Below, one piece after another: positions 7,596-41,470 of a DNA stretch of 55,947 bases. The stretch comes from Candidatus Pacearchaeota archaeon. Lineage in GTDB: Archaea; Nanobdellota; Nanobdellia; Pacearchaeales; GW2011-AR1. The notes below the pieces were generated by a model that saw only the letters and a list, made by a program, of their open reading frames with translations, was not told the origin of the DNA and searched no databases. Location: positions 1-55,947 of the forward strand of contig NZDU01000040.1 of NCBI GenBank assembly GCA_002688875.1, in the 5' to 3' direction. The position numbers and the translations under genes are program-made. Position 1 is the stretch's first letter. Every line of letters starts with the position of its first letter.

Positions 7596-7667
7596 ATTAA
7601 TGTAAAATGTTTATTTATTTTTAAAACTATCGCTGGCTTTTTATATAACTACTTATTATTGGGGTTA

Positions 7668-12839: not shown

Positions 12840-13523
12840 ATGGATATATCCGAGAAAAATAGGAATAATATTATATCTAGATGGAATAAAATACACGAAG
12901 TAGATAAAGAGTATATTCGAAAAAATAGTAATAAATTTCTTCATTTGAAATCCAGAATTTGCGGTTTTATTGCTGGAGATGGAAATATCCTGGTTGATAA
13001 TGGCTCTACTTGTAGACATAATACGGTAAGATTCTTTCCGGATAATCTTTCTTTAGTTAAATCTTATGGAGAAGCAATTTTGAAAGTGTATAATAAAATA
13101 CCCAAGATTGTCGAGAAGGAAAATTATTTTTACATGACTTTAGACTCCAAACCCGTAGTTTTGGATTTGTTAAGTTATTGTGAGTTTGGGAAGATGGAAT
13201 GGACTATTCCTGATTTTGTTTACGAATCTGAAGAGAATAAGATAGAATGGTTAAAGTCTTTTTTTGATTGTGAAGCCTATGTAAATGGTAAGTCTATTGT
13301 TGTTAAATCTGTAAATGGGAAAGGTTTGTTGAAAGTTAAGGAATTAGTTGAAAGTTTTGGAATTGAGACTAAGATATACTCCTATAATCCTAAGAATAAA
13401 AAATGGAACATAAATTATATGTTGTACATTCTAAGAAAAGAAAGTAGGAGGAAATATCGAGATTTAATTGGTTTTAATCATTCCACAAAGCTTAAAAAAC
13501 TCAATATCGTTTTACAATCTTAA
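12840..13523 (+). CDS. Free-standing double-motif LAGLIDADG homing endonuclease-like protein
   Basis: Two LAGLIDADG-type motifs: ICGFIAGDGNI and LKSFFDCEAYV. A TATA-like CTTTATATAT lies about 22 nt upstream. The stop codon (13521-13523) directly abuts tRNA position 1. Confidence 0.75.
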   Translation: MDISEKNRNNIISRWNKIHEVDKEYIRKNSNKFLHLKSRICGFIAGDGNILVDNGSTCRHNTVRFFPDNLSLVKSYGEAILKVYNKIPKIVEKENYFYMTLDSKPVVLDLLSYCEFGKMEWTIPDFVYESEENKIEWLKSFFDCEAYVNGKSIVVKSVNGKGLLKVKELVESFGIETKIYSYNPKNKKWNINYMLYILRKESRRKYRDLIGFNHSTKLKKLNIVLQS

Positions 13524-13673
13524 GCCGGGATCGCATAACCTGGTATTGCACAAACTTTTTGGGTTATAATCTGAAAAAGTGTAGGCCTGGAATCTTGCTT
13601 GAATAAAGTGGGATCAAGGAATACCAGCGAGCTTGACCCTCTGGGTGTCTGGGTTCAAATCCCAGTCCCGGCG
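13524..13673 (+). tRNA. tRNA-Ser-like gene with ~65 nt of intervening sequence (candidate anticodon UGA at 13600-13602)
   Basis: Acceptor GCCGGGA/TCCCGGC with discriminator G. T-arm CTGGG-TTCAAAT-CCCAG. D-arm GCA-TAACCTGGTAT-TGC. Candidate anticodon arm TCTTG-CTTGAA..T-CAAGG. The 150-nt length implies one to three introns, and the exact splice sites are unresolved. Confidence 0.7.
13661..13673. repeat. attL core (CCCAGTCCCGGCG) inside the tRNA-Ser 3' end
   Basis: Exact 13-nt match to 25793-25805. An ATG follows both copies after one mismatched base. Confidence 0.7.
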
Positions 13674-13747
13674 AATGATACTTTTGTGATGTATCCGAAT
13701 TCTTTAAGATGTTTGGATTACTTAGAAGTAGCTGGAGGTGAAGATTC

Positions 13748-15004
13748 TTGAAGATCGATCCACACAAGCATAAAGAGAAATACCAAAACTGGAAGAAGAA
13801 AGGTGTTGTTGAAGGAGTTTCAAAATTCAACTCAGACATTTTGATAGAGTATTTGACTGATATGGAGAATGGGTTGAATGTAACCAGGAGAGGGGTAATT
13901 GGGTATGCTCGCTTGAACAATCTCAGACAGAGAATGAGATTTATCGCAAGGCATTTGGAGGAGCTTTATGGCAAGGGCAGGATAATTGATGTTATAGAAA
14001 AAGAAATTGTCGCCTTCTTTAAGGCGATGAGAGATGGGAAAATCCTAACCAGGGAAGGGAAGAACTACACTTCAATTCCTGATTATGTGAATGTGTTCAA
14101 GGCCTTCTGGCATTGGTATCAGCGAGTTGAGAATGAAAAAGGAAATTTGGTGAAGGACATCACCAGATACATTGACACGAGTCCGGTGAAGGAGTCTGAG
14201 TTCGTTTATTTCACCATTGAAGACGTCAAAAAGATAGCTGAACGAGCGAAGTATGAATACAGAGTGTTGATGTGGTTTTTGTTTGACTCTGGGATTAGAG
14301 CGCCTACGGAACTGATGAATGTTAAGGTGTCTGATCTGGCCCTATTGGAAGGCTCAGATATCTATCAATTGAACATCAGAGATGAAATCAGTAAGACTTT
14401 TGGGAGGAAAATAAAACTGATGCTCTGTTCCCATCTGCTGAGGGATTACATCCAGGATAAAGGACTTGGGGATGAGGATTATTTGTTTCCCATTGTTCCA
14501 AGAGTAGTGAGTCAATACCTCAAGAGATTGGTTGTGAGAACTTTGGGAGATAAAAAAACCAAGGGTGGGCAATTCTTGAGAGAGATATCAATGTATGACT
14601 TCAGACATTCTTCAGCTTGTTACTGGTTGCTGAGATATAAGAGTGAGTCTGGATTGAAATACAGGTTTGGCTGGAAAAAAGAGGCTATGGTTCATTACTA
14701 CACCAAATTACTTGGAATGAGGGATACTATTGCTGAAGATGATTTGATGATTGATAGTGAGGCAAAGACAAAATTAGAAAAGGAATTGGGACAGGAGAGG
14801 AAGAATAAGAGCTTGTTGGAAGAAGAGCTTCAATCTCAGAGGGAGGAAATGACTGCAATCAAAGAACAGCTTGAGCGAAATAAGGCAGGGAATTTATTCA
14901 TCTTGAAACTGTTGAAAAGTCTCCAGAAAAGAAAGAAAATTCAGGATGTGATAGAGGTTATCAAAGAGGAAGATTTGGTTGAGGAATTGGAGATGATCGG
15001 ATAG
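13748..15004 (+). CDS. Tyrosine recombinase / phage-type integrase
   Basis: 418 aa. Motifs GIRAPTEL, YDFRHSSA and MVHYYTK (R..H-x-x-R..Y pattern). TTG start preceded by GGAGGTGA. C-terminal coiled-coil tail. Confidence 0.85.
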   Translation: MKIDPHKHKEKYQNWKKKGVVEGVSKFNSDILIEYLTDMENGLNVTRRGVIGYARLNNLRQRMRFIARHLEELYGKGRIIDVIEKEIVAFFKAMRDGKILTREGKNYTSIPDYVNVFKAFWHWYQRVENEKGNLVKDITRYIDTSPVKESEFVYFTIEDVKKIAERAKYEYRVLMWFLFDSGIRAPTELMNVKVSDLALLEGSDIYQLNIRDEISKTFGRKIKLMLCSHLLRDYIQDKGLGDEDYLFPIVPRVVSQYLKRLVVRTLGDKKTKGGQFLREISMYDFRHSSACYWLLRYKSESGLKYRFGWKKEAMVHYYTKLLGMRDTIAEDDLMIDSEAKTKLEKELGQERKNKSLLEEELQSQREEMTAIKEQLERNKAGNLFILKLLKSLQKRKKIQDVIEVIKEEDLVEELEMIG

Positions 15005-15112
15005 TAGGGAGCCTTGGGGTTGGATTTCTTGTCTCGAAAGATTCTAAATCTGCTTGACATTGGGTAAATTTGGGTACATGTTAACAGGTGAGTCGGAAAG
15101 TGGACCCCATTG

Positions 15113-15946
15113 TCAAGACCAATTTGAGGCGAATTTAAGGTGGATTGCGTTTTTGTGCTCAATAGGCATCTCCTTTTTGAGGTAGAGGTCAGCGGGAACC
15201 CGATCATTGAGTCCCTGATGAGGGCGTTCGTCATTATAGAAGCCGAAGTATTCGGTCAGCCCCAGGTAGAGCTGGGGGACCCTGTCGTAGGACTTGAGGT
15301 AGAGTTCTTCGTATTTGACCGAGCGCCACAAGCGTTCGATGAACACGTTGTCCAGTGCTCTGCCCCGTCCGTCCATGCTGATGCGAATGCCTTCTTCCTC
15401 CAGCCTTTTTGTGAATCGGGGGGAAGTGAACTGAGACCCCTGGTCGGAGTTGAAGATCTCGGGTGTGCCGCGGGTGAGGGCTTCACCCAGAGCCTCCAGA
15501 CAGAAATCCACCTCCAGGGTGTTGGACAACCGCCAGGACAGCACATACCGACTATACCAATCCATCACGGCGACCAAATACATAAAGCCTTGTCGCATCG
15601 GGACATAGGTAATATCTGTGCTCCAGACCTGGTTAGGCCGGTCGATGGACAGGCCCCGTAGCAGGTAAGGATAGATGCGGTGTTGGGGATGGGACCGACT
15701 GGTGTTGGGACGCGGATAGATCGCTTCCAACCCCATCTTGTGCATCAACCGTTGCACGCGTTTGCGGTTGATATCGTATCCCAGATTTCTCAACCACGTC
15801 GTCATTCGTCTGGACCCATAGAAGGGTCGCTTTGTATATTGCCCATCGAGAAGACGCATCAAGAACAGGTTCTCCGAGGTTTCGCCTGCTGGCTGGTAGT
15901 AGAAACTGGACCGAGAAAGGCCAAGTAACTGGCATTGTCTGCGCAA
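15113..15946 (-). CDS. IS3 transposase OrfB (DDE/rve integrase core), expressed as OrfAB by -1 frameshift
   Basis: Contains WSTDITY, MDWYSRYVLSW, FNSDQGSQFTS and ERLWRSVKYEE motifs. The orfB frame stays open upstream to the A-run (KKKLPDKVEERRRLIDPGDPDLSLRRQCQ). Confidence 0.9.
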   Translation of the reverse strand: MRRQCQLLGLSRSSFYYQPAGETSENLFLMRLLDGQYTKRPFYGSRRMTTWLRNLGYDINRKRVQRLMHKMGLEAIYPRPNTSRSHPQHRIYPYLLRGLSIDRPNQVWSTDITYVPMRQGFMYLVAVMDWYSRYVLSWRLSNTLEVDFCLEALGEALTRGTPEIFNSDQGSQFTSPRFTKRLEEEGIRISMDGRGRALDNVFIERLWRSVKYEELYLKSYDRVPQLYLGLTEYFGFYNDERPHQGLNDRVPADLYLKKEMPIEHKNAIHLKFASNWS

Positions 15947-15995
15947 GCTGAGGTCCGGATCCCCCGGATCGATCAGCCTGCGCCTTTCCTCAACT

Positions 15996-16274
15996 TTATC
16001 CGGCAGCTTTTTTTTTCACAAAGTCCAGTTCGACCTTCAACCGACCAATTTGTTCGTAGAGTCGCGCTTTGAGTGCCTCATCATTTTGATGATCTTTGGC
16101 GCGGGAACTGGAGAAGAGGTCCACTGCCCCAACCTGGAGCTGCTTTTTCCACTGGCTGATCTGGTTGGGGTGAACCTCATACTCGGCTGCCAACTCATTG
16201 ATGGTTTTCAAACCCTTTAATGCTTCTATGGCGACACGGGATTTGAATTGGGCACTTCGGTGATTTCGCTTCAT
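15996..16274 (-). CDS. IS3 transposase OrfA (HTH)
   Basis: 92 aa. INELAAEYEVHPNQISQWKK helix-turn-helix plus a leucine-zipper-like tail. Ends just after the A9 run. Confidence 0.9.
   Translation of the reverse strand: MKRNHRSAQFKSRVAIEALKGLKTINELAAEYEVHPNQISQWKKQLQVGAVDLFSSSRAKDHQNDEALKARLYEQIGRLKVELDFVKKKAAG
16008..16016 (-). promoter_or_regulatory. Programmed -1 frameshift slippery run (A9 followed by G on the minus strand)
   Basis: T9 on the plus strand at 16008-16016, in the orfA/orfB overlap. This is the classical IS3 A-AAA-AAG type site. Confidence 0.7.
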
Positions 16275-16623
16275 GAATCCACTCCTTATTACTACTTAGT
16301 ATCTAACTTAATGAGTGGTCCAGTTTCTGGGGTCCAATATATCGCTGCTTACTTATCTGCTTCCTACCGGGAGGAAGTTGCCTATAGATTTACCATTCAT
16401 TAGTCCCAGACATCTCTTTTGAAGATATGTGCCTGGGATGTTTTTTTATTCGATAAAGGCAAACCTGCTGAAAAGCTGGGACGCAAAGGAGCGGGTCCTC
16501 GTCTGACCGACCACCGGGTGTGTGGGAGATGCGGGATGGAGAGGCCGGCCAGCTCCAAGACAGCCGCACTGCCGAAGATAATGGTGGTGCGGTTTTTCTT
16601 ACTTGTACAGAACAATCGTTCGA

Positions 16624-18075
16624 TCAGAATTTTTCAGGATCTATTCCTAAATCTTCACCGCTGTATTTTATTTTTCTCTTGACCTCGTTGAATTCTCGAG
16701 CCGTTGCATCATTACCCCTTTTTAGATCTCCGTAGGTTATAACACGCTTGTCATTAGGCTTTAAAATGAATTCCTTGTATGCTATCAGTCTATAATCTGG
16801 AACAATCTCTTTACAAGCAAATCTGTAATTTATCGTTCTGTCTTCCTCAAAGGTTTCTATTTCTCCTGGCTCTATGCCCAGAACTGATGATTTGAATTTA
16901 GCTTTTGCAGGTACAACAATCTTATTGTAGCCAACATTTCTCATATCCTCAATTTCATATTGCATTCTAATTACAGTATCCCACTTGTCTCTATAGATAT
17001 TCGAAAAGAAACAACCATCAACGCCGCAGATCATATTTCTGAATTCTAAAGAACATCGTATTTGAGTAGATGGATCTTTGGTTACAATAACACGGGTTGA
17101 AGGGTAAATCACCGTGGCTTGTGAAGACTTATCATTGAGCGGCATTATCTTGTTCGTTCCAAAAGGGTGGTCCATACAGAAATCATCCTCACAGTTATCC
17201 CCAGCGTCCCAAATCCCTTCCTTATTAAAATGACCAATGCGATTATAAAGGAAGTAAATCCGTTTTTTCGCCTCCTCAGGAGTCATAAATACTAAATCTG
17301 GACAATCGGTTGTATCAAAGCAAAATGTAGTATCAACACTGTACCACAATCCATCAATATGATACATAGTAACGATGTGATTTATGCTTACCAGTCTCGG
17401 AATAGAAGGAATTTCTGCAGCTCTCAACATAGCAGATGTAATAGTTGCAGCATCTAAACACACTCCTTCGTCACTATCAAAGATTACAGAAAAATCCTTG
17501 TCCTTATTGGCAGGAGATCTACAATCCTCATATAACTCAGGGCACTGATAATTCTTCGACCTAAACACCCAATTAGCAATAGCTTTGACCTTTTCAAAGT
17601 CGCTATCTTTCCCTTCAGTTAATTCCTCAACTTTCTTTACAAGAGGAGGATAGTTCTGCCAGTCATCCCACACTCTTTCAACACCAGGCAATCTATTGCC
17701 TAAGTAATCATCAAGATCATCTGACGCTACCAAGTTCATTAGTATTGGTTTACAAACACGTTGCTTTGTTAAGGGAGAAATTTCATCGTCAAGGATGAAT
17801 CCTTTTGGACATATGCCCTCTTCTAAAGCCCCGCATTCTGCTCCATAATAACTATCAGCAAATAGAAAAAAATCTTTGATTTCTACTTCATTATCATTGT
17901 CCAGATCAAATTCACTGTTTAAAATACCTTGGTTTTGAAATGCTATAAATGCCTTAGAGAAAAGTAAAAAATCATCTAAATTCACTTTGCAGTCATTATT
18001 GAAATCTGCTTGAAGGGCCGAAGTATCTTGACTAAAGACTATTAACACTAGCATTAAGAGAAATTTCTGTCTCAT
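16624..18075 (-). CDS. Secreted dockerin-like + transglutaminase-like (Cys-His-Asp) domain protein
   Basis: Signal peptide. Two Ca-loop repeats, DFNNDCKVNLDDF and DLDNDNEVEIKDF. Transglutaminase-core-like EGVCLDAATITSAMLRAAEIPSIPR...NHIVTMYHIDGLWYSVDTT. Confidence 0.7.
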   Translation of the reverse strand: MRQKFLLMLVLIVFSQDTSALQADFNNDCKVNLDDFLLFSKAFIAFQNQGILNSEFDLDNDNEVEIKDFFLFADSYYGAECGALEEGICPKGFILDDEISPLTKQRVCKPILMNLVASDDLDDYLGNRLPGVERVWDDWQNYPPLVKKVEELTEGKDSDFEKVKAIANWVFRSKNYQCPELYEDCRSPANKDKDFSVIFDSDEGVCLDAATITSAMLRAAEIPSIPRLVSINHIVTMYHIDGLWYSVDTTFCFDTTDCPDLVFMTPEEAKKRIYFLYNRIGHFNKEGIWDAGDNCEDDFCMDHPFGTNKIMPLNDKSSQATVIYPSTRVIVTKDPSTQIRCSLEFRNMICGVDGCFFSNIYRDKWDTVIRMQYEIEDMRNVGYNKIVVPAKAKFKSSVLGIEPGEIETFEEDRTINYRFACKEIVPDYRLIAYKEFILKPNDKRVITYGDLKRGNDATAREFNEVKRKIKYSGEDLGIDPEKF

Positions 18076-18142
18076 TCAATCTTTGAGAAGTGAACGTAAT
18101 ATTTAAATATTTAGATTACAATTGAGAAAAGAGTGATTTTAA

Positions 18143-18802
18143 ATGCCAGGAAGAATTGAGAAATTTATGAATGCACTTTCTCACAAGAGGGTAATTCTAG
18201 TGATGTTGGTGCTTATTATGATTAGCCCCAATTCATATGCTGATATCATCCCTTCTGGCCACCATTCCATAGAACACTGTTTTGAGATAGCAAATACAAA
18301 TGAATACCCAAATCATACCTTCTTGGCCAAAACTCTTGTGGTTACTATTGCAGATTCTAGTTGGATAAGTGAAGTCATCAAAGGTAACGACTGTATCAAG
18401 TTCCATAGAGGTGTCAAGAAGCTACAGATCTGCGCTACAAGCAGGGAATCAAATACTAAGGGTATGGCAGCGGAAGAATCTAGTAATCCTATCTGTTCAA
18501 ATATTCTTGATATGAAATTCGCCGGAATCGTTCACAAAAGTGACCCTACACAGAAGGTGATTGATTCTTTTAGTATTGAGGACACGAATGATGATCGCTT
18601 ATCAATAAAGGAAACTAAAGTTACCTATATATATAAGGATGGCAGCGTCGAGGAATTACCCTATACAACTCAAGCTGAAAGACCGGTAGCTACTAGAGCA
18701 TATTCAAGTCTTTCAGGAAAATTTTGGTTTATCTTACCTTTAAGTGCCTTGGTGGCAATCTTCCTGATTGTTATGTGGAAGCTTCTGAGACGGGAGAGAT
18801 GA
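18143..18802 (+). CDS. Secreted protein with C-terminal TM anchor
   Basis: 219 aa with an N-terminal hydrophobic segment and a C-terminal FWFILPLSALVAIFLIVMW followed by basic residues. Confidence 0.5.
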   Translation: MPGRIEKFMNALSHKRVILVMLVLIMISPNSYADIIPSGHHSIEHCFEIANTNEYPNHTFLAKTLVVTIADSSWISEVIKGNDCIKFHRGVKKLQICATSRESNTKGMAAEESSNPICSNILDMKFAGIVHKSDPTQKVIDSFSIEDTNDDRLSIKETKVTYIYKDGSVEELPYTTQAERPVATRAYSSLSGKFWFILPLSALVAIFLIVMWKLLRRER

Positions 18803-19116
18803 TAGGTTTATCCATAGAAGTGACCGCATTGCTTCTGACAATTCTGGTTGAATTTGTCATTATTTACCTAGTGCTAAAAGAAGACAGGTGGACTGTAATT
18901 TTGTTATATGTCACACTTATAAATTGTGTCTCTCTCCCTCTTGCTTTTAGGTTATATAATACTCAGTTACTGGGATTTTATGGAACCGAACTCTTCGTCT
19001 TTATTCTAGAAGTCTTCCTACTTGGAATGCTTGTTCAAAGAGAATATGGCCGTGTAGTTTTATCTTTGTCACTTGCCAATTTTTCAACTGCTGTCTTGAG
19101 TGTGATGTTCCTGTAA
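18799..19116 (+). CDS. Small polytopic membrane protein
   Basis: Start at ATG 18799, forming an ATGA overlap with the upstream stop. About 3-4 hydrophobic helices. Confidence 0.45.
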   Translation: MIGLSIEVTALLLTILVEFVIIYLVLKEDRWTVILLYVTLINCVSLPLAFRLYNTQLLGFYGTELFVFILEVFLLGMLVQREYGRVVLSLSLANFSTAVLSVMFL

Positions 19117-19147
19117 ACACTTCTACCCTTGCCCTTGGGGGTTTAAG

Positions 19148-21946
19148 ATGATTTCTATGCAACGTCTTTCAGTGCTCTTCACTGTGTTAATTTTGACAAC
19201 GGCTGCTACAACACCTGCTCAAAGACCAACAGTTTCAGATGACCTAGCTGAGAGGGCTGCACAAATATTTGCTGAACAACGCTGGGGATCGTCTACTTTG
19301 ATTTGGAGAAACCCACTATATGGGCTCAATGGTAAAATTCAAGCATACTCGTATTTAGTGTACTTGGATAATGCTGTGCCAAAAGAAATTGAGAAAGCTA
19401 TTGAGAGAGAGGACATTGATTATCTGTTATCTACATCGGAAAATCTGTTAGGCACTGTCGTTATATCTGCTACCAGAGATGAATTTCCTTTTCTTGAACG
19501 CTACGAGGGACCTCCGATCGAAATTGTTCAGAAGAACAAGGGCAAAGAAATTTATAAGAGGACTTGGGGGGAAACTGGAAATCCCCGATTTTACCGCTTA
19601 GGTCCGGGATTAATTATTGGAGATTATTCTGAAGACAAAGTGTTGCCTTCTAATGGCACTATTACTAAGGGAGTGTTCCTATCTACTCAGAAACCAATCC
19701 TTTTTGACCCAACGCCAGAATTAGCAACGAAACCAGCTATGGATCCAGTGACCAAGTTCCAATCTGAACAAATCTGGCGGAAGCTAGAACAGACCAGAAG
19801 TTCCAAGATCACGATGAAATTTCAGAGAAGTGAACAGTTTATCAGCGGTGTCCCCTATTATTTACAAGACGACTTTGATGGTCCTAATTCCACTATCTGT
19901 GTCCAGACAGCTACCGCCCAAGTGCTTGGCTATTGGGACGACAATGGATATGGTCTCCTTGTCAGAGGGGGAAATTCCAATTATACTTCTGGTGTTCGAC
20001 AGATGATTAATGATCTGAAGACTACGATGGGATGGTCCAGAGATGGTGCAACAAGCTTCGATGTATGGGATCTTTTTAATTTCCAAGGAATTACGAGATT
20101 TACAAATGATTCAGAATTTGGGAGGAATTACAATTTTCAAGCTCATATAGGTAGACTTAGCACATTCAGTGAAGCGTTTGTCTGGACTGATGTTGTATCT
20201 GAAATAGATGCTGGAAGACCCATAATTTATATGATCGGATTAGGCGGCAATCTTACACATATTGGTGATCATACCATTGAGAATCGTTCCCTTGCTACTT
20301 TTGGTCACGCGATGACAGCTGTTGGCTACGAATCTTGGGACATTGGTATTGGTACTGACTTACATATTGTCAAAGTACATTATAATCATCTCATTGGAGG
20401 ACAAAGACGTCCATTAGAGATTATAAATAACACCTCTACCCAAAAAGTAACTATCAAAGTCCAACCTGGAAGACCACCGCAGAGTATTGATTTGGTAGCT
20501 ACTTCCATTGATGGACCTGGGGAGGGGACACAAGGAGGATCAATATCTGTTTATCGGATCATCTCAAACGGTGGGGCGACAAACGCTGGTCGATTTAAAA
20601 TTAAGTATTATTTCTCATCCAATAGAACCATCTCAGACAGTGATTTTCTGCTCGGAGAAGAGGAAGTTACTAGCCTTAATGGTGGTTTTGTGTCTGGTCG
20701 CAATGTAAATATAACTGTCCCTGCGAGAGTAAGTACTGGTTCGTATTATCTAGGTATGATTGTAGATGCTGACAATGCCATCTTTGAATCTAATGAGGGT
20801 AATAATATCGAGCGTGACTCGGAAATAATTGTTATACGTTCGGGAGGTAGACCAAACTTAGTAGCTACTTCCATTGATGGTCCGAGTTCAGGTTCACAAG
20901 GGGGATCAATATCTGTTCGCAGGAGGGTTTCCAATGATGGGAATGCAGCCAGTGGAACGTTCAAAATTGGATATTATCTGTCAACTAACAGAACAATTTC
21001 AACCGGAGATAATTTACTTGGGAAGGAAGAAATCACACTCAATGCTGGTTCCAGTTCAGACATAATGGTTAGTATCAACATTCCAAATTCAATTAGCATA
21101 GGCACATTTTATTTAGGAATGATTGTAGACGTTGATGAAGATGTTACCGAATCTAATGAAGATAATAACATTGTTCGTGATTCAGGAACAATTAACATAG
21201 GCAGTGGAGGGGGTCTATCTGCTGATCGTTACGAAAATGACAACACTCGTTCTAGCGCAACACAAATTGCTACAGATGGTACATCTCAGACTCACACTGT
21301 TCACGTAAATAATGACAATGACTATGTTTATTTCGAGGCTCAATCTGGAGTTCAGTACACAATTGAGACAACAGGAAACATAGATACAGAATTGACAATT
21401 TACAACTCTAGTGGAACACAGCTCGCACATTATGATAACGATAGAGTGGCAGGTAACAATGAGCGAGAAACTTTCTCTCGAAGTGGATCAGGGAATCTTC
21501 GGACGTATGTAAAAATAAATGAACGTGGTCAGAACGATACTGGAACTTATACCATCTCTGTTACAAGTAGCGGAGGGGGTCTATCTGCTGATCGTTACGA
21601 AAATGACAACACTCGTTCTAGCGCAACACAGATTGCTACAGATGGTACATCTCAGACTCATACTATTCACACAAATAGTGACGAAGACTATGTTTATTTC
21701 GAGGCTCAATCTGGAGTTCAGTACACAATTGAGACAACAGGAAACATAGATACAGAATTGACAATTTACAACTCTAGTGGAAGACAGCTTTCGAATTACG
21801 ACAATGACAGAGGATCTGAAAATAATGAGCGAGAAACTTTCTCTCGAAGTGGATCAGGGAATCTTCGAACTTACATCAGAGTAATTGAACACCGCCAGGA
21901 CAATACTGGTAGCTATACTATTTTTGTTACAAGGGAGGGTGGATAA
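19148..21946 (+). CDS. Secreted streptopain-like (peptidase C10-like) cysteine protease with 2x CARDB and 2x PPC domains
   Basis: Signal peptide. Pro-region pattern GTVVISATRDEFPFLERYEG. Catalytic-Cys context CVQTATAQVLGYW (tgt 19898-19900) and His context FGHAMTAVGYE. CARDB-like repeats (LVATSIDGP..GGSISV...ESNE.NN). PPC-like repeats (DRYENDNTRSSATQI...DYVYFEA). Confidence 0.75.
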   Translation: MISMQRLSVLFTVLILTTAATTPAQRPTVSDDLAERAAQIFAEQRWGSSTLIWRNPLYGLNGKIQAYSYLVYLDNAVPKEIEKAIEREDIDYLLSTSENLLGTVVISATRDEFPFLERYEGPPIEIVQKNKGKEIYKRTWGETGNPRFYRLGPGLIIGDYSEDKVLPSNGTITKGVFLSTQKPILFDPTPELATKPAMDPVTKFQSEQIWRKLEQTRSSKITMKFQRSEQFISGVPYYLQDDFDGPNSTICVQTATAQVLGYWDDNGYGLLVRGGNSNYTSGVRQMINDLKTTMGWSRDGATSFDVWDLFNFQGITRFTNDSEFGRNYNFQAHIGRLSTFSEAFVWTDVVSEIDAGRPIIYMIGLGGNLTHIGDHTIENRSLATFGHAMTAVGYESWDIGIGTDLHIVKVHYNHLIGGQRRPLEIINNTSTQKVTIKVQPGRPPQSIDLVATSIDGPGEGTQGGSISVYRIISNGGATNAGRFKIKYYFSSNRTISDSDFLLGEEEVTSLNGGFVSGRNVNITVPARVSTGSYYLGMIVDADNAIFESNEGNNIERDSEIIVIRSGGRPNLVATSIDGPSSGSQGGSISVRRRVSNDGNAASGTFKIGYYLSTNRTISTGDNLLGKEEITLNAGSSSDIMVSINIPNSISIGTFYLGMIVDVDEDVTESNEDNNIVRDSGTINIGSGGGLSADRYENDNTRSSATQIATDGTSQTHTVHVNNDNDYVYFEAQSGVQYTIETTGNIDTELTIYNSSGTQLAHYDNDRVAGNNERETFSRSGSGNLRTYVKINERGQNDTGTYTISVTSSGGGLSADRYENDNTRSSATQIATDGTSQTHTIHTNSDEDYVYFEAQSGVQYTIETTGNIDTELTIYNSSGRQLSNYDNDRGSENNERETFSRSGSGNLRTYIRVIEHRQDNTGSYTIFVTREGG
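20495..21937 (+). repeat. Four in-frame 366-bp modules (2 diverged CARDB, 2 near-identical PPC)
   Basis: GTAGCTACTTCCATTGATGG occurs at 20495 and 20861. GGAGGGGGTCTATCTGCTGATCG occurs at 21206 and 21572. Long identical runs link the last two modules. Confidence 0.85.
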
Positions 21947-21979
21947 AACAATTAAAGAACCAGAGCAGAGGAGATAAAA

Positions 21980-22360
21980 ATGTTACAGATATACACAATT
22001 CAGATTTCAGTGGCCCATCAATTGAGACTGACACAGGACCCCCGCTATCTTGATACCACAGTCAAATCAGGCGACAAGATATTTGCACCGACGTGGAAGA
22101 TGGTGATGGGCGTAAAAGGAGGCAGGACTACAGAGGAAGAATACACGCAGCAATACTATGATATGATGCGTGCGAGTTATAGGCAGAATACAGAAGGGTG
22201 GAATGATATTCTAGCCCTGGATGAAATCATTCTGGCCTGCTACTGCAAACCCGATTCGTTCTGCCATCGTTATTTGCTGAAGGATATGTTAGTGAAATGT
22301 GGAGCGGAGTATTCGGGGGAAGTCAGAAGGGTAGAAGATTTAGCTTCAAGAAACTTTTGA
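21980..22360 (+). CDS. Small DUF488-like protein (FAPTW...ACYCKPDSFCHR motif)
   Basis: 126 aa, assigned by pattern-level resemblance only. AGGAG lies 7 nt upstream. Confidence 0.4.
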   Translation: MLQIYTIQISVAHQLRLTQDPRYLDTTVKSGDKIFAPTWKMVMGVKGGRTTEEEYTQQYYDMMRASYRQNTEGWNDILALDEIILACYCKPDSFCHRYLLKDMLVKCGAEYSGEVRRVEDLASRNF

Positions 22361-22442
22361 AGGATGATTGTGAGAGGGTGTTGCGGAAAGTAAACGCAGA
22401 ACTATAATCTGCTATGGAGGGAAAAACAAGTTGCTTTTTATT

Positions 22443-22886
22443 TTAAGATTTATTCATCAACCGACTGAGATCTTTTTTTAAGGAATCTTCAAAGTGGTCT
22501 TTATCATTTACAACAGTGAATTCAACAGGTAGATTTAAGTTTTGTATTTTCTCTTGAGGTGTTTCAGCTGTAACATAAATTAGACATTCCTTTCCTGAGG
22601 ACACAGCCTCTTCAATCCTGGGCATTGCCCAATTATCTTCAATGCTTCTTCCTTGATGTTCTGCAATGAGTAGAACCAACACTTTTGATTGGTGATAAGA
22701 ATCTAAAATTTCTCTGTTAAGGATACTTTTTATAGCACGTAATCCCACACCTACATAGAAATCAAGGGATAATCCGAGAGATTCAACCAGCCTATCCGCG
22801 AAACCAAAACGGACCTCATTATACCCTATGGATTGCTTAATGTCGATATTGGTGCAAAAAAAAATCCTCTCCCCTTTTTGAAGCAT
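22443..22886 (-). CDS. Hypothetical protein (147 aa)
   Basis: Start moved to MLQKGERIFF (cat 22884-22886), which has AGGAGG 7 nt upstream. There is a weak Rossmann-like pattern (VLVLLIAEHQG...IEEAVSSGKECLIYV). Confidence 0.5.
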   Translation of the reverse strand: MLQKGERIFFCTNIDIKQSIGYNEVRFGFADRLVESLGLSLDFYVGVGLRAIKSILNREILDSYHQSKVLVLLIAEHQGRSIEDNWAMPRIEEAVSSGKECLIYVTAETPQEKIQNLNLPVEFTVVNDKDHFEDSLKKDLSRLMNKS

Positions 22887-23097
22887 TTGTTTTCCTCCTA
22901 AAGGAGAGAGTTTGATTATTACACAGAAATTTTGCAATAAGGATTATTGAGCATTAATTGCCTATCTACGAACGGCTCACATTAATCTGAAATCTGTGAT
23001 TTATCGCGAAAAATGTGCTTTTAACGATTTTTCGGATGATGGGTGTCGATAATTTATAGCAAATTTCTCTCATTTTGAGCTTACTGCAAAATCTCTG

Positions 23098-24447
23098 TTA
23101 CAGTGCTTGAGCAAGTTCTTCTCTGTGCATAATCTCTTCAATATGATCAATACGTTTCTGAATGAGAGGATAAGTGCCGATGTCTCTTCTATGACGCACA
23201 GGTCCGATGACTTTGTTAACAGCATCTTCAGCTATTTGCTCTGCTGCTTCAAGATCATCACCAATCCCTACAAATGCAACCGCACGAGACCCCGTCATGT
23301 AGAGTTCATCTTGTTCCTTGTAAACCGCGCCATAGAACATTCTCAATTCATCACTTGGACTTGGAACTTCACTCATATTGATGCGGGCACCCCTTATAGG
23401 ATCATCTGGATATCCTTCAGGCACAACATATTTGCACACTGTAGCTTTTCTCTCAAATTCAATTGGAGTCCTATCAAGTGTGCCGTTAAGAATGGCCTCA
23501 CATACATCCATAAAATCTGTCTTCAGCAGCGGCAGCACATTCATAACTTCTGGATCTCCGAACCTTGCATTGTATTCTATGAGTCTTAGACCTTTTTTTG
23601 TGAACATAAATCCGCCATATAAAACCCCTTTATACTCACTACCAACTTCCTCTCGAAGTGCGCGAGCAACTGCCGAATTTATTTCACTAGCTTCTTGGAT
23701 ATGCTCTTTAGAAATGAAGGGCAGATCGTGTTCTTTACAAGAATAAGATCCCATACCTCCAGTGTTAGGACCTGTATCTCCATCGTATGCTCGCTTATGG
23801 TCCTGAGCAACAACCATATCCACTACGTGCTGACCATCACATAGAGATTGTAAGCTGAATTCTTCTCCTTCAAGTTTTTCCTCAATCACAACAGCTTGAT
23901 GTTTTTCGTGGAAAAGTTCCCTACTATATTGAAGGGCTTCATCAATCGAATGGAGGTGCTCTCCAAATACCTTTACTCCCTTTCCTCCTGTGAGACCATC
24001 AGGTTTAACAACGAACTCACCTACAGTGTGAAGATATGATTCAATGCCTTCAATGTCTCGAAAAATTCGGTAGTCTGGATTCCCAGGGATATCATATTTG
24101 GAAAGAAGTTCACGTGTGAAAAGTTTACTTGATTCGAGTCGTGCAAGAGATTTTCCAGGTCCTATACAAGGAATACCGAACTCCTCACTCAATACATCCA
24201 CAGCCCCAACAGCGAGTGGTTCCTCAGGTCCAATTACCGCGAAGTCTGGCTTCACTTTGTTAGCAACTTCCCTAATATCCTCTAGCCGATCTGTATAACC
24301 AGTTTTCAACTCTTCTACTTTCTCACGGAGACCTGGATTTTCAACCTCTGAAAGAGCGTATAACTGTGGAGACCCATGGCTTCTTCTTAAAGCATCGGCA
24401 ATGCAATCAATCCTAGCAGACTTTCCAATTAGAAGAACCTTATACAT
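23098..24447 (-). CDS. purD: Phosphoribosylamine-glycine ligase (ATP-grasp)
   Basis: 449 aa, full length. N-terminal KVLLIGKSARIDCIA, ATP-grasp core VVKPDGLTGGKGV, and C-terminal GSRAVAFVG. Confidence 0.88.
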   Translation of the reverse strand: MYKVLLIGKSARIDCIADALRRSHGSPQLYALSEVENPGLREKVEELKTGYTDRLEDIREVANKVKPDFAVIGPEEPLAVGAVDVLSEEFGIPCIGPGKSLARLESSKLFTRELLSKYDIPGNPDYRIFRDIEGIESYLHTVGEFVVKPDGLTGGKGVKVFGEHLHSIDEALQYSRELFHEKHQAVVIEEKLEGEEFSLQSLCDGQHVVDMVVAQDHKRAYDGDTGPNTGGMGSYSCKEHDLPFISKEHIQEASEINSAVARALREEVGSEYKGVLYGGFMFTKKGLRLIEYNARFGDPEVMNVLPLLKTDFMDVCEAILNGTLDRTPIEFERKATVCKYVVPEGYPDDPIRGARINMSEVPSPSDELRMFYGAVYKEQDELYMTGSRAVAFVGIGDDLEAAEQIAEDAVNKVIGPVRHRRDIGTYPLIQKRIDHIEEIMHREELAQAL

Positions 24448-24545
24448 TATTGCCCTCCCCGAGAATTTAAAACGATAGTCATAACAAATTCTTTACATTA
24501 AGATATTAAATATCAATAACTTATATATAAATCTTGCGATTTGTA

Positions 24546-24971
24546 TTATGTAAGACCCCGCCGAGATTTTTTTAGAAGTTGAAACCCCTCTTGAAACCGA
24601 TTAATCCTTTTGCTGGTAAGACCATGTTGTCTGAACATTGGAAAATTACGATCTTGTCCCGGTTCCAACTGTGTCGCAAAGGCTTTAGTCCGAGCAAGAG
24701 TATATTTCCAACGGTCGGTCACTAGATCAACCAGTGCTGTGTAACAAACTGAAGGGATTCCTGTGTCTTCTACTTGCAGCACGGCAAAAGAAGGGTCGTC
24801 GATTCTTTCCCCATTCTCTCTATAGACATATCTCAGTTCAAATCCATAAAGTGATGCCCAAATCGCCTCGGATTCAGTACCGAGTTTTGACTCTGGCATA
24901 GATTGGAATTCTATTCCGGCAATATTGATTGCTTGGCGAGGAGGCTGAATGTATGGTAATACGATAAGCAT
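24546..24971 (-). CDS. Hypothetical protein (141 aa)
   Basis: Track ORF with no recognisable motif. Confidence 0.4.
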   Translation of the reverse strand: MLIVLPYIQPPRQAINIAGIEFQSMPESKLGTESEAIWASLYGFELRYVYRENGERIDDPSFAVLQVEDTGIPSVCYTALVDLVTDRWKYTLARTKAFATQLEPGQDRNFPMFRQHGLTSKRINRFQEGFQLLKKSRRGLT

Positions 24972-25174
24972 TTTGTAACCTTACCATAGAATTGCGGTGA
25001 AAAATAACCCTATTCTATATTGTATTTTGGAATCACACGGCGTGGCCACTCGTCTTTTGGGGTAGGGCAGACATGGCGCACACCTACGAGCTTATCCAAC
25101 CTTGTTTGGAATATACTTTTTTTATAAGGATAATGTCAATCCTCTACTTCAAGTAATTCTTTTTATTTGGCATA

Positions 25175-25348
25175 TTATTTAAACTTATTTTTATGTACGT
25201 CCTTGCTTACATAATTAGAGGAACTGTGCTTCACCTTTTCAGAGATGACTCCAGGTTTCTGCTCTTCAGCACCGGTTTTTGAACCCTCTTCCAATTCACT
25301 CAGAAATTTTCGCAGAAGTGTAACCCATTCTGGAACCTCATTCTTCAT
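25175..25348 (-). CDS. Possible 57-aa ORF overlapping the AbrB-like gene by 11 nt
   Basis: Hand translation gives MKNEVPEWVTLLRKFLSELEEGSKTGAEEQKPGVISEKVKHSSSNYVSKDVHKNKFK. The overlap sequence is ATGAAGAATGA. Confidence 0.25.
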   Translation of the reverse strand: MKNEVPEWVTLLRKFLSELEEGSKTGAEEQKPGVISEKVKHSSSNYVSKDVHKNKFK

Positions 25349-25571
25349 CTTGCTTCACCTCATCTTCTTTCACAATTTCCTTCGGCTTTCCATCCAGGTA
25401 GGAAACCATTAAGGGTCTTCCATTTTCATCCTTTGCAGTGTAAGAATAAATAGGCATCCCTCTCTCCAAACCGAGTCCTTTCACAACAGGTTTCAAGATA
25501 AGGATCTTGGAAGTTCCTGCCTTCATCTGTAGCAAGGATTTCCAGCCGTGAAATTGAAAGGTGATTCTCAT
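25338..25571 (-). CDS. Small AbrB/SpoVT-like DNA-binding protein (tentative)
   Basis: 77 aa. The pattern SKILILKPVVKGLGLERGMPIYSYTAKDENGRPLMVSYL resembles a swapped-hairpin barrel. Acidic tail. Confidence 0.35.
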   Translation of the reverse strand: MRITFQFHGWKSLLQMKAGTSKILILKPVVKGLGLERGMPIYSYTAKDENGRPLMVSYLDGKPKEIVKEDEVKQDEE

Positions 25572-25792
25572 TTTCTTATTAAGGAGATGCTGAAGTTCTT
25601 AACACTTTTCGGCACTTTTGAGATGCCGTAAGGAAGAGTAGTGTTTCGCCACTTGAATGTGCAGGTGAGGATAGAGGAGAAACATAACTTGATGACTCAG
25701 TAGAAAGATATAAATAGGAGTAGTGTCTTACTTATTTTAATGAGGCATTCCATTATCAATGCCAATCGAAGATATCACACAAAGGTATTCTG

Positions 25793-25805
25793 CCCAGTCC
25801 CGGCG
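25793..25805. repeat. attR core (CCCAGTCCCGGCG)
   Basis: Exact copy of the tRNA-Ser 3' end. AT-rich backbone sequence resumes immediately after it. Confidence 0.7.
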
Positions 25806-26130
25806 TATGTAATTCTATTTAATCGCTTAAAGAAAATAAAATGGGTGTCTAAATGTTGCCGATAATTTATAAGCTGGGACTTTCTCCAAAAGAAGGAATG
25901 AAAAAATGGCTAAAAAATAAATAAATACGACTATGAAAAAAAATTAAACTAAAAGATAAAAAGTATTGAAAAGTCTAGTATGGGTAATAAGAATAAAGAA
26001 TTAATTTTTGAGTTTAGAGACTTTTGCTTTATGGAGGGATTAAGTAAAGTTAGAGTTTGGAGGGAAACACAGAGACTTAAATAATTTATGGACAGTAAAT
26101 TATATAAATTTTTCTTCTTTCGTCCTTAAC

Positions 26131-40879: not shown

Positions 40880-41470
40880 TTTAAAAAGTTCTTGCATATT
40901 TTTTTGAGTTCTTTTTGAAAGTTGTTTTTCTTTTGGAGCTTGCCAATTAATAACGTATTTCATCCAATTATTTTTATCTAATTTTTTTGCATGTATTCCA
41001 AAAAATATGTGGATTTCTTTGTTGGTTACATGTTTTTGATTTTGATTATAAACAATCAAATGGGGTATTTCATTGAGATATTTTCTTCCCACATACATGT
41101 AAGCGAGTATTGAATGGTGACCATCAAATAAGACCCAGTTATTGTTTTTTGTTTTTATTAGTTTGATGTTGGGCAATTTATTTTGTGAGGTTATTTCTTT
41201 ACCATTTTTTATCTGATTAATCATATTTTTAATCTGTGGGGTATCTCTAATTCCGGTATCATCATGCAAATTTATAATCTCGCTTAATTTAATCTTTTTA
41301 TTGATTTTTTTGGTTTTCAATTTTAATCCTTGGAAATATTTTTTTTCAAAGAGGTTAAGGGTTTTATAGATATCAATTTTCTTATTTGTAATGAAGATGG
41401 TTGAGGTTGTTGTATTTATAAAATTATTATTTTTATTGGGATAAAATAATCTTATGGTTCTATAGTTCAT
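40850..41470 (-). CDS. ParB/sulfiredoxin-like nuclease-domain protein
   Basis: VLFDGHHSILAYMYVGRKYLNEIP matches the ParB N-domain DGHHR-type motif. Start moved to MNYRTIRLF (cat 41468-41470) to leave a divergent promoter region. Confidence 0.5.
   Translation of the reverse strand: MNYRTIRLFYPNKNNNFINTTTSTIFITNKKIDIYKTLNLFEKKYFQGLKLKTKKINKKIKLSEIINLHDDTGIRDTPQIKNMINQIKNGKEITSQNKLPNIKLIKTKNNNWVLFDGHHSILAYMYVGRKYLNEIPHLIVYNQNQKHVTNKEIHIFFGIHAKKLDKNNWMKYVINWQAPKEKQLSKRTQKNMQELFKSIFPKILQL

What the first reader, a model, noticed from the sequence alone, without database searches (positions are those of the whole stretch)
16624..21946. Island cargo: divergent secreted-enzyme module
Two divergent units make up the module:
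- On the minus strand, a signal-peptide protein with dockerin-like Ca loops fused to a Cys-His-Asp transglutaminase-like core.
- On the plus strand, an ATGA-coupled pair of membrane proteins followed by a 932-aa protein. That protein has a streptopain-type pro-region, a catalytic Cys (CVQTATAQVLGYW), a His (GHAMTAVGY), 2 CARDB modules and 2 PPC modules.

These domains are typically bacterial. Their delivery on a mobile element into an archaeon that the rest of the window suggests is a small-genome, possibly symbiotic lineage (inference) would fit a horizontally acquired cell-surface attack or attachment toolkit.
Basis: partly seen in the sequence, partly recalled or inferred. Interest (0 to 1): 0.7.

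Follow-up and report, generated by a model that had tools for sequence, protein, structure and literature searches.

The report
Secreted-enzyme island in a Pacearchaeote
A 12-kb mobile island inserted at a tRNA gene of a tiny marine archaeon carries two predicted secreted cysteine enzymes and a pair of small membrane proteins; most of these genes have their closest relatives in other tiny archaea rather than in bacteria, so this is a good annotation but not a new kind of system.

Summary
All four ORFs exist.

- **TGase-like protein (483 aa, minus strand):** it has a Sec-type signal peptide, a dockerin-like double Ca-loop (Pfam 22.0 bits, cut-off 22.9) and a Transglut_core domain (37.4 bits) with Cys206, His233 and Asp248.
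- **Plus-strand operon:** it encodes a 219-aa type-I membrane protein, an ATGA-overlapped 105-aa four-TM protein, and a 932-aa protein.
- **932-aa protein:** signal peptide, about 200-aa pro-region, papain-like core (Cys251, His387), 2 CARDB and 2 PPC modules.
- **Protease family:** Pfam places the core in Peptidase_C39_2. The C10 and streptopain pro-region HMMs fail. An AlphaFold model nevertheless matches the streptopain zymogen best (E 2e-5).

"Island cargo" is confirmed. A 13-nt direct repeat (CCCAGTCCCGGCG) at 13661 (tRNA 3' end) and 25793 bounds a 12.1-kb element. It has an adjacent tyrosine recombinase, a bacterial-type IS3 and deviant composition.

"Typically bacterial" is only partly right. 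The closest TGase relatives and the membrane pair are in DPANN archaea. Only the deeper relatives of the protease core are bacterial.

The attack or attachment role is untested. Extracellular proteolysis or surface remodelling is the best guess. The domains are known, so these are new members of known kinds.

A side find is an orphan c-di-GMP-I riboswitch beside the IS3.

The parts
13524..13673 (+). Intron-containing tRNA gene. Its 3' end (13661-13673) is the left att repeat.
   Evidence: Rfam RF00005, 34.5 bits, full length. Repeat found.
13661..13673 (+). attL: CCCAGTCCCGGCG, made of the T-stem 3' strand, the acceptor 3' strand and the discriminator base.
   Evidence: Exact 13-mer occurs only twice in the window; 0 of 100 shuffles give 2 matches. 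16 of 17 nt match when extended.
13748..15004 (+). Tyrosine recombinase (integrase), 418 aa, intact, 75 nt from attL.
   Evidence: Pfam Phage_integrase 27.6 bits (cut-off 27.1). PHROG phrog_1 integrase, E 2e-19.
15101..16336 (-). Bacterial-type IS3 element: orfB 15113-15946, orfA 15996-16274, terminal inverted repeats TGGACCCCA.
   Evidence: NCBIfam transpos_IS3 270.6 bits (cut-off 160). About 61% aa identity to bacterial IS3 transposases. Inverted repeats read from the sequence. GC 0.48-0.54.
16448..16604 (+). Orphan c-di-GMP-I riboswitch: aptamer 16448-16577 plus overlapping hairpin and T-run terminator 16562-16604. No gene lies downstream on this strand.
   Evidence: Rfam RF01051 53.4 bits (gathering score 35). 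Alignment. 13-bp stem terminator.
16624..18075 (-). Secreted TGase-like cysteine enzyme, 483 aa. Signal peptide aa 1-20 (18016-18075). Dockerin-like module aa 22-78 (17842-18012). Transglut_core from aa 149 (17631 downward). C206 (17458-17460), H233 (17377-17379), D248 (17332-17334). Conserved Cys-rich C-terminal region.
18076..18142 (.). 67-bp divergent intergenic region with a palindromic TATA-like TATTTAAATA at 18100-18109. It lies about 25-34 nt from both start codons (inferred shared archaeal promoter region).
   Evidence: Sequence read. The promoter role is inference.
18143..18802 (+). 219-aa type-I membrane protein: signal peptide, about 155-aa ectodomain with 4 invariant Cys, C-terminal TM (aa 194-212), basic tail.
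   Evidence: Homologues only in L012, L017-L020 and L022. No family hit in Pfam, NCBIfam, PHROGs or PDB.
18799..19116 (+). 105-aa four-TM protein. Its ATG overlaps the TGA of the upstream gene (ATGA). Conserved intramembrane E18, N42, E64, E71, Q80 and R85.
   Evidence: No family or PDB hit.
19148..21946 (+). 932-aa secreted cysteine-peptidase zymogen. Signal peptide aa 1-24 (19148-19219). Pro-region aa 25-225 (19220-19822). Papain-like core aa 226-440 (19823-20467) with Q240, C251 (19898-19900), H387 (20306-20308) and N413. CARDB x2 (about 20486-20827 and 20849-21187). PPC x2 (about 21197-21562 and 21563-21943).
21980..22360 (+). 126-aa DUF488-N3a-like gene, a phage-associated family, downstream of the protease inside the island.
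   Evidence: Pfam PF22751 35 bits. phrog_2450, E 8e-36.
23098..24447 (-). purD (GARS) inside the island.
   Evidence: Pfam GARS_A/N/C. Composition.
25793..25805 (+). attR: second copy of CCCAGTCCCGGCG. The island spans 12,132 bp from attL to attR.
   Evidence: The independent Tara scaffold L001 spans 13619-25844, ending within about 40 nt of both repeats.

Best explanation
A 12.1-kb integrative element sits in the 3' end of a tRNA gene of a marine Pacearchaeote (DPANN archaeon). It carries its own intact tyrosine recombinase and has since picked up a bacterial IS3 and a riboswitch fragment.

Its cargo includes two separately evolving extracellular thiol-enzyme units that share a 67-bp divergent promoter region.

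Unit 1 is a Sec-exported transglutaminase-fold enzyme (Cys206-His233-Asp248). It belongs to a family shared by DPANN archaea and CPR-like bacteria. Here it has uniquely gained an N-terminal dockerin-like Ca-binding module, which would dock it to a partner on a surface.

Unit 2 is an operon. A DPANN-specific membrane pair (a single-pass ectodomain protein plus a small four-TM protein) is followed by a papain-fold peptidase. The peptidase is exported as a zymogen and held inactive by a roughly 200-residue streptopain-like pro-region. After pro-region removal it uses Cys251 and His387. Two CARDB and two PPC beta-sandwich modules act as binding or spacer domains.

The most likely role (inferred) is extracellular proteolysis and cell-surface remodelling, serving peptide scavenging or host contact in an organism with little biosynthetic capacity.

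Shown here: gene structures, domain memberships, catalytic residues, island borders, and who the relatives are. Inferred: secretion, zymogen activation, substrates, and any cooperation between the membrane pair, the protease and the TGase-like enzyme.

The island's cargo most probably came from another, higher-GC DPANN lineage, not directly from a bacterium.
For: Island:
- Exact 13-nt direct repeats at 13661 and 25793; 0 of 100 shuffles match.
- Integrase next to attL.
- Tetranucleotide correlation with the host falls to 0.55-0.84 between 13.5 and 25.5 kb, against 0.94-0.98 elsewhere.
- Plus-strand cargo genes lie 2.9-4.5 sd below the host GC skew.
- An independent Tara scaffold breaks within about 40 nt of both repeats.
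- Three assemblies share all junctions at 99.9-100% identity.

TGase-like enzyme:
- Pfam 37.4 bits and a conserved triad.
- The dockerin-like segment is present only in this member.
- Woesearchaeota homologues sit next to an SPP gene. The window's own SPP (7545-8534) lacks that neighbour, so the gene is not at the location seen in relatives.

Protease:
- 22 of 22 family members hit Peptidase_C39_2 and 4 of 22 hit C10.
- C251 and H387 are invariant.
- The profile gives weak hits to chymopapain (E 0.008) and interpain A (E 0.08).
- The AlphaFold model (pLDDT 78, pTM 0.82) best matches the SpeB zymogen at E 2e-5, and prointerpain A at E 5e-3.

Operon:
- The same order (pair then protease) occurs in L012 at 43, 55 and 51-56% identity. 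L012 has GC 0.40, like the island.
- The pair alone occurs in archaeal contigs L017/L018 and L022.

Signal peptides.
Against: - No secretion predictor could be run.
- The C10 and streptopain pro-region HMMs fail.
- Fold-search TM-scores are below 0.5.
- The Dockerin HMM is just under its cut-off, and no cohesin was seen in the ORFs scanned.
- The membrane pair occurs without a protease in two of four lineages. In L022 an MFS transporter follows it instead. A functional link to the protease is therefore not obligatory.
- The TGase gene is never seen beside the protease elsewhere.
- No expression, substrate or host data exist.
- The donor lineage is inferred only from GC content and one 4-kb contig.
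Confidence: 0.6

Rival explanations
1. A bacterial secreted-enzyme toolkit was delivered as a unit by a mobile element into the archaeon and is used to attack or attach to other cells.
For: - The island is real.
- It contains clearly bacterial DNA: an IS3 about 61% identical to bacterial copies, and a c-di-GMP-I riboswitch.
- The identifiable genome-resolved relatives of the protease core are bacterial: Sumerlaeota, Desulfovibrio and Marinilabiliaceae, plus NCBI 'bacterium' P0028.
- CARDB, PPC and dockerin modules suit surface binding.
Against: - The nearest TGase homologues, all homologues of the membrane pair, and the nearest protease are in archaeal (DPANN-type) contexts.
- Bacterial protease relatives share only 25-37% identity and lack the pair.
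- The TGase and protease units are not linked elsewhere.
- TGase-like and dockerin domains are common in archaea (PMC10117817, PMC9012536).
- The attack function is untested.
Confidence: 0.2
2. Self-directed envelope maintenance. Both enzymes and the membrane pair process or cross-link the cell's own surface or S-layer proteins. The island location is incidental.
For: - TGase homologues in Woesearchaeota are fixed next to a signal-peptide peptidase gene in ordinary chromosomal contexts.
- The membrane pair sits among core genes (radA, PCNA, ribosomal protein S2) in other DPANN contigs.
- TGase-fold enzymes have been proposed for cell-wall cross-linking and recycling in archaea (PMC10117817).
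Against: - In this genome all four genes are accessory island cargo.
- The protease family is rare: 98 hits among 1.84 billion representatives. It is absent beside the pair in two of four lineages.
- The dockerin-like module and the CARDB and PPC modules suggest binding to something external.
Confidence: 0.17
3. Assembly chimera. The higher-GC stretch is foreign (bacterial) DNA joined to an archaeal contig by mis-assembly.
For: GC 0.37-0.54 against 0.33 in the host, and a bacterial IS3 and riboswitch.
Against: - Both flanks are archaeal.
- The borders are a tRNA-derived direct repeat with an adjacent integrase.
- The same junctions appear in three contigs from different assemblies at 99.9-100% identity.
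- Cargo genes have DPANN homologues.
Confidence: 0.03

Closest known systems
Streptopain (SpeB) and interpain A zymogens, MEROPS family C10
   Same: - Best PDB fold match for residues 1-451, covering both the pro-region and the catalytic domain (1dki and 1pvj at E 2e-5; 3bb7 at E 5e-3).
- Similar Cys motif (C-x-x-T-A-T-A-Q) and G-H-A His motif. The interpain alignment spans Cys to His.
- Both are secreted zymogens with an N-terminal inhibitory pro-region.
   Different: - The Pfam C10 HMM is not reached (14.4 against 26 bits), and there is no pro-region HMM hit.
- TM-scores are below 0.5.
- The pro-region is about 200 aa, against about 118 in SpeB (from my own knowledge).
- There are four C-terminal beta-sandwich modules.
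- The host is an archaeon, and the gene follows a membrane-protein pair.
Pfam Peptidase_C39_2 (PF13529), uncharacterised C39-like papain-fold peptidases
   Same: Passes the curated cut-off (26.7-32.7 against 24 bits), as do all 22 aligned relatives.
   Different: This is a catch-all family with no defined substrate. There is no ABC-transporter fusion of the kind seen in true C39 bacteriocin-processing peptidases (from my own knowledge).
Transglutaminase-like superfamily of Makarova, Aravind and Koonin 1999, including the phage pseudomurein endoisopeptidase PeiW
   Same: Transglut_core HMM hit and a Cys-His-Asp triad. The enzyme is extracellular. Archaeal members are numerous and some act on cell walls (PMC10117817).
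   Different: - No detectable sequence match to any solved TGase-fold structure.
- It has its own conserved Cys-rich C-terminal region.
- The family is restricted to DPANN and CPR-like genomes in the searches run.
- The dockerin-like module is unique to this copy.
tRNA-targeting integrative elements of archaea with an intact integrase (pNOB8-type arrangement, named from my own knowledge)
   Same: - An intact tyrosine recombinase next to attL in the tRNA 3' end.
- A short direct repeat at the far end.
- Deviant composition.
   Different: - No replication, conjugation or virion genes were recognised.
- The cargo is surface enzymes, purD and a bacterial IS3.
- The host is a DPANN archaeon.

Membership tests
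Peptidase C10 (streptopain family) | Pfam PF01640 at or above the gathering score | tested here: not met
   14.4 bits against 26, covering only the Cys motif at aa 246-269. 4 of 22 relatives hit at E<=0.01; in the separate scan, relatives scored 25.7 and 22.9 bits, below the 26-bit cut-off.
Peptidase C10 (streptopain family) | Catalytic Cys and His in the conserved motifs | tested here: met
   C251 and H387 are invariant in 22 sequences. The alignment to interpain A covers both.
Peptidase C10 (streptopain family) | N-terminal streptopain-type pro-region (Pfam Spi_Prtas-inh / Inhibitor_I69) | tested here: inconclusive
   No HMM hit at E<=10. The AlphaFold model aligns to the SpeB zymogen over 410-480 columns at E 2e-5, but with TM 0.37-0.48.
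Peptidase C10 (streptopain family) | Autocatalytic zymogen activation | not testable with these tools
   Needs biochemistry.
Peptidase_C39_2 (PF13529) | HMM at or above the gathering score | tested here: met
   26.7 bits for the full protein and 32.7 bits for the N-terminal 451 aa, against 24. 22 of 22 relatives match.
Transglutaminase-like superfamily (PF01841) | HMM at or above the gathering score | tested here: met
   37.4 bits against 23.
Transglutaminase-like superfamily (PF01841) | Cys-His-Asp triad | tested here: met
   C206 and H233 are invariant in 9 of 9. D248 is present in 8 of 9, with Glu in one.
Dockerin type I (PF00404) | HMM at or above the gathering score | tested here: not met
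   22.0 bits against 22.9, E 2e-4. A PDB dockerin matches at E 0.015.
Dockerin type I (PF00404) | Duplicated 12-residue Ca-binding loop with D/N at positions 1, 3, 5 and 12 | tested here: met
   D24/N26/D28/D35 and D57/D59/D61/D68.
Dockerin type I (PF00404) | A cohesin partner encoded by the organism | tested here: inconclusive
   No Cohesin hit in the 39 window ORFs scanned. The rest of the genome was not available.
CARDB (PF07705) and PPC (PF04151) modules | HMMs at or above the gathering score, two copies each | tested here: met
   CARDB 84.2 bits and PPC 37.3 bits, 2 stretches each. Internal repeats with periods of 363 and 366 nt.
tRNA-integrated genomic island | Direct repeats, one within the tRNA 3' end, flanking the element | tested here: met
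   A 13-nt exact repeat (16 of 17 nt when extended) at 13661 and 25793; 0 of 100 shuffles match.
tRNA-integrated genomic island | Tyrosine recombinase adjacent to an att site | tested here: met
   13748-15004. Pfam 27.6 against 27.1 bits; phrog_1, E 2e-19.
tRNA-integrated genomic island | Composition distinct from the host | tested here: met
tRNA-integrated genomic island | Empty site or excised circle observed in a population | not tested
   The only hint is that Tara scaffold L001 ends about 40 nt outside both repeats.
c-di-GMP-I riboswitch (RF01051) | Covariance model at or above the gathering score, full length | tested here: met
   53.4 bits against 35, model positions 1-87.
c-di-GMP-I riboswitch (RF01051) | A regulated gene downstream on the same strand | tested here: not met
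   The terminator ends about 20 nt before the stop codon of the convergent TGase gene.

The most novel reading that the evidence does not exclude
The 219-aa and 105-aa membrane pair may be a DPANN-specific surface platform that accepts interchangeable third-gene partners: a C10-like zymogen protease here and in L012, an MFS transporter in L022. On this reading it tethers or activates the protease at the archaeal surface for contact-dependent digestion of a host envelope. The whole unit would be traded between DPANN lineages on tRNA-targeting islands. Those islands also trap DNA from bacterial neighbours (IS3 plus an intact c-di-GMP riboswitch), which would record physical DNA flow from bacteria into a DPANN cell.
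Probability: 0.12. Interest if true: 0.65.

Novelty: new member of a known kind. Interest (0 to 1): 0.38.

Why it matters
DPANN archaea are thought to live off other cells, but the proteins that work at their surfaces are mostly unannotated. This locus gives four "hypothetical proteins" testable identities:

- a zymogen-type cysteine peptidase;
- a docking-capable transglutaminase-fold enzyme;
- a conserved, DPANN-restricted membrane pair.

It also shows that these genes travel on a cleanly delimited integrative element. That offers a concrete example of how surface functions move within the DPANN gene pool. The bacterial IS3 and riboswitch are a small, dated trace of bacterial DNA entering such a genome. 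None of this overturns current views.

Tried and rejected
- **att site, first attempts.** The repeat finder with a minimum length of 14, and 20-22-mer patterns from the tRNA 3' end, found nothing. The 13-nt repeat emerged only after the Tara scaffold ends pointed to about 25.8 kb.
- **Structure prediction.** Single-sequence AlphaFold of the protease N-terminus was unusable (pLDDT 39.8).
- **PDB sequence searches.** Sequence-only searches gave only marginal hits for the protease. They gave none for the TGase core or the membrane pair.
- **Other family libraries.** NCBIfam and PHROGs gave nothing for the four module proteins.
- **The search for related loci.** The trimmed alignment found only four bacterial loci.
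- **Viral collections.** Scans with the integrase and the protease found nothing, so there is no evidence for a provirus.
- **HxxEH motif.** This motif sits just after the signal peptide of the 219-aa protein and suggested a metal site. I dropped the idea because the motif is absent from the L022 homologue.
- **Taxonomy of distant protease relatives.** Source names were mostly blank.
- **IS3 target-site duplication.** None was evident.

Full report
**What the window is.** The window carries an archaeal RNase P RNA and intron-bearing tRNAs. It also carries thermosome, EF-2, EF-1alpha, Mre11/Rad50, GAPDH and PGK genes. The exact proteins of the finding are deposited as hypothetical proteins of a Candidatus Pacearchaeota MAG, from the Tara station 039 mesopelagic 0.1-0.22 um fraction.

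**Check of the observation.** All ORFs exist as described.

The minus-strand 483-aa protein:
- It starts MRQKFLLMLVLIVFSQDTSA|LQ. This is a short basic n-region, a 10-residue hydrophobic core and a small-residue cleavage motif (manual judgement, no SignalP).
- Residues 22-78 hit Pfam Dockerin_1 at 22.0 bits (E 2e-4), just below the 22.9 cut-off, and a solved dockerin at E 0.015.
- Two 12-residue loops carry D/N at positions 1, 3, 5 and 12.
- Transglut_core scores 37.4 bits against a cut-off of 23.
- In an alignment of nine family members, C206 and H233 are invariant. D248 is conserved in eight, with Glu in the ninth.

The plus-strand unit:
- It begins 67 bp away with a 219-aa protein. This has a signal peptide, an ectodomain with four invariant Cys, one C-terminal TM and a basic tail.
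- The ATG at 18799 overlaps that gene's TGA stop (ATGA). It opens a 105-aa protein with four hydrophobic segments.
- The 932-aa protein starts MISMQRLSVLFTVLILTTAATTPA|QR. It hits CARDB twice (84.2 bits), PPC twice (37.3 bits) and Peptidase_C39_2 (26.7 bits for the full protein, 32.7 for the first 451 aa; cut-off 24).
- The two PPC modules are 91% identical at the DNA level.

**What kind of protease it is.** Pfam Peptidase_C10 reaches only 14.4 bits (cut-off 26), over the Cys motif alone. No streptopain pro-region model hits even at E<=10.

Other evidence points the other way:
- An exhaustive HMMER search of 1.84 billion representatives found 98 relatives (32 below 1e-10). Most are large secreted multidomain proteins.
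- All 22 aligned relatives match C39_2, and 4 of the 22 also match C10 weakly.
- Across the alignment, C251, H387, W263, W346, P358, G393 and Y394 are invariant. The N-terminal region (about aa 28-225) is conserved together with the core.
- A profile of the family gives weak PDB hits to chymopapain (E 0.008) and to the C10 enzyme interpain A (E 0.08, spanning Cys to His).
- An AlphaFold model built on that alignment (pLDDT 78, pTM 0.82) has the streptopain zymogen as its best PDB matches (1dki and 1pvj: E 2e-5, probability 1.0, 410-480 aligned columns including the pro-domain). Prointerpain A and mature streptopain come next. TM-scores are only 0.37-0.48.

My reading is that this is a papain-fold (clan CA) peptidase from an uncharacterised family lying between Pfam C39_2 and C10. 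It has a streptopain-like but longer pro-region. "Works like a C10 zymogen" is reasonable. "Is a C10 member" is not shown.

**The island.** A tyrosine recombinase (Pfam 27.6 against 27.1 bits; phrog_1 at E 2e-19) lies 75 nt after an intron-bearing tRNA.

My first searches for an att repeat failed. A blastn of the independent Tara scaffold L001 then showed that it covers exactly 13619-25844. That pointed me to about 25.8 kb. There the 13-mer CCCAGTCCCGGCG recurs at 25793. It corresponds to the tRNA T-stem 3' strand, the acceptor 3' strand and the discriminator at 13661-13673. It extends to 16 of 17 nt, occurs nowhere else, and 0 of 100 shuffles reproduce it.

The element is 12,132 bp long. Composition agrees with these borders:
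- Tetranucleotide correlation with the rest of the window is 0.55-0.84 for 3-kb windows between 13.5 and 25.5 kb. It is 0.94-0.98 elsewhere.
- The plus-strand cargo genes lie 2.9-4.5 sd below the host GC skew and 1-4 sd above host GC.

Three contigs from different assemblies carry the same junctions at 99.9-100% identity, which argues against a chimera. Two of them end inside or next to the att sites. I take this, as an inference, to reflect branching in the assembly graph between island-bearing and island-free genomes.

The island also holds:
- a bacterial-type IS3 (NCBIfam 270.6 bits; about 61% identity to bacterial transposases; inverted repeats TGGACCCCA at 15101 and 16328; GC 0.48-0.54);
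- a DUF488-N3a gene with a strong phage-family match;
- purD.

**Where the cargo comes from.**

TGase-like protein:
- It has nine relatives in 5.8 billion clusters.
- The closest (47-62% identity) are archaeal. One is named Woesearchaeota by NCBI. Two (P0005, P0006) sit directly after a presenilin-type signal-peptide peptidase gene in a conserved block. P0003 sits next to a PAC2 gene.
- More distant relatives (38-40%) are in bacterial contexts with sigma-70, Mur ligase, GroEL/ES and SecG. One carries an SLH domain where the window's protein has the dockerin-like module.
- The window's own SPP gene (7545-8534, 40% identical to the Woesearchaeota one) is not next to the TGase gene. This fits acquisition on the island.

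Membrane pair:
- The 219-aa protein has one homologue cluster, in Hainich groundwater 0.1-um contigs. There it is again followed by an overlapping 105-aa four-TM gene, lies near a RadA-like N-terminal fragment (my reading of the translation), and has no protease.
- A metagenome scan with the 105-aa alignment found a more distant pair beside PCNA and ribosomal protein S2. That pair is followed by an overlapping MFS transporter.

Protease:
- The nearest protease is on contig L012 (GC 0.40, like the island). It follows homologues of the same pair at 43%, 55% and 51-56% identity, and its reading frame is interrupted near residue 240.
- In species-representative genomes, the pattern-limited scan found only four loci, all bacterial (Desulfovibrio, Marinilabiliaceae and two Sumerlaeota). 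The catalytic-domain query matched them at 32-37% identity and the full protein at 25-29%. None has the pair.

The module is therefore a mosaic. The TGase and the pair belong to a DPANN (and CPR) gene pool. The protease core has bacterial deep relatives, but its nearest copy is already embedded in the archaeal-type operon. The two divergent units are not linked anywhere else that I could see.

**Mechanism.**

Shown:
- intact catalytic residues in both enzymes;
- a conserved pro-region;
- binding-type modules;
- an overlapping-codon operon;
- a 67-bp divergent intergenic region containing a palindromic TATTTAAATA, about 25-34 nt from both start codons.

Inferred:
- Both enzymes are exported by Sec.
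- The protease is an inactive zymogen until its pro-region is removed.
- The CARDB and PPC modules and the dockerin-like module position the enzymes on a surface or substrate.
- The pair may anchor or assist the protease.

Given the host's reduced metabolism, extracellular proteolysis or surface remodelling, for scavenging or for host contact, is the most likely purpose. A self-directed envelope role is a serious rival, because relatives of the TGase and the pair sit in ordinary chromosomal contexts.

**Comparison with what is known.** TGase-fold enzymes are widespread in archaea and include cell-wall isopeptidases such as PeiW (PMC10117817). Dockerin and cohesin modules are common in archaea outside cellulosomes (PMC9012536). 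From general knowledge, CARDB and PPC are also frequent in archaeal surface proteins despite their names. The finding therefore adds new members to known kinds, on a well-defined DPANN island.

**Side observation.** A full-length c-di-GMP-I aptamer lies 111 nt from the IS3 (53.4 bits, gathering score 35). It has a 13-bp terminator hairpin overlapping its P1 strand. It points into the 3' end of the convergent TGase gene and has no gene to regulate. I read it as bacterial DNA that arrived with or near the IS3.

**Verdict.**
The island and the secreted enzymes hold. Bacterial origin of the module does not. The attack role is untested.
- Interest is moderate to low.

Noticed in passing
window 16448-16604 (+): A full-length c-di-GMP-I (GEMM-I) riboswitch aptamer (Rfam 53.4 bits, gathering score 35) with an overlapping 13-bp hairpin and T-run terminator. 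It is a complete bacterial-style switch in an archaeal genome. It has no downstream gene, since it runs into the 3' end of the convergent TGase gene. GC is 0.62.
   Followed up: partly
window 15101-16336: An apparently intact bacterial-type IS3 (orfA and orfB, inverted repeats TGGACCCCA). Its transposase is about 61% identical to proteobacterial and cyanobacterial copies, and its GC is 0.48-0.54 in a genome of GC 0.33. No target-site duplication is visible.
   Followed up: partly
window 23098-24447 (-): A complete purD (GARS) gene lies inside the 12.1-kb island as cargo. This is odd for a lineage expected to lack purine synthesis. No other pur genes are in the window.
   Followed up: no
window 21980-22360 (+): A 126-aa DUF488-N3a protein just downstream of the protease matches phage family phrog_2450 at E 8e-36.
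   Followed up: no
window 12840-13523 (+) and 13524-13673: A LAGLIDADG_3-domain ORF ends exactly where the intron-bearing tRNA (about 75-nt intron) begins. The tRNA isotype was not determined, and ARAGORN missed this tRNA.
   Followed up: no
L007, L008, L010, L011 (Woesearchaeota-type contigs): Homologues of the TGase-like protein always sit directly downstream of a presenilin-type signal-peptide peptidase, after a conserved block of three unannotated genes. The window has the SPP (7545-8534) but not this arrangement.
   Followed up: partly
L022 5444-7280; L017 308-1283: The membrane pair (a protein with a signal peptide and a C-terminal TM, plus a small four-TM protein, with overlapping start and stop codons) recurs in DPANN-type contigs with different third genes. 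In L022 the third gene is an MFS transporter. In L017 there is none.
   Followed up: partly
L001 (Tara scaffold) = window 13619-25844: An independently assembled scaffold begins and ends within about 40 nt of the two att repeats. This suggests the assembly graph branches there, which would mean island-free variants exist in the population.
   Followed up: no
window 41390-41479 (+): ARAGORN calls a tRNA-Asn(att) that overlaps a 235-aa minus-strand ORF (40850-41557) and is not supported by Rfam. It is probably a false positive.
   Followed up: no
L012 about 1600-1615: The closest protease homologue is split by a frame change near residue 240. This is either a pseudogene or a sequencing error.
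   Followed up: no
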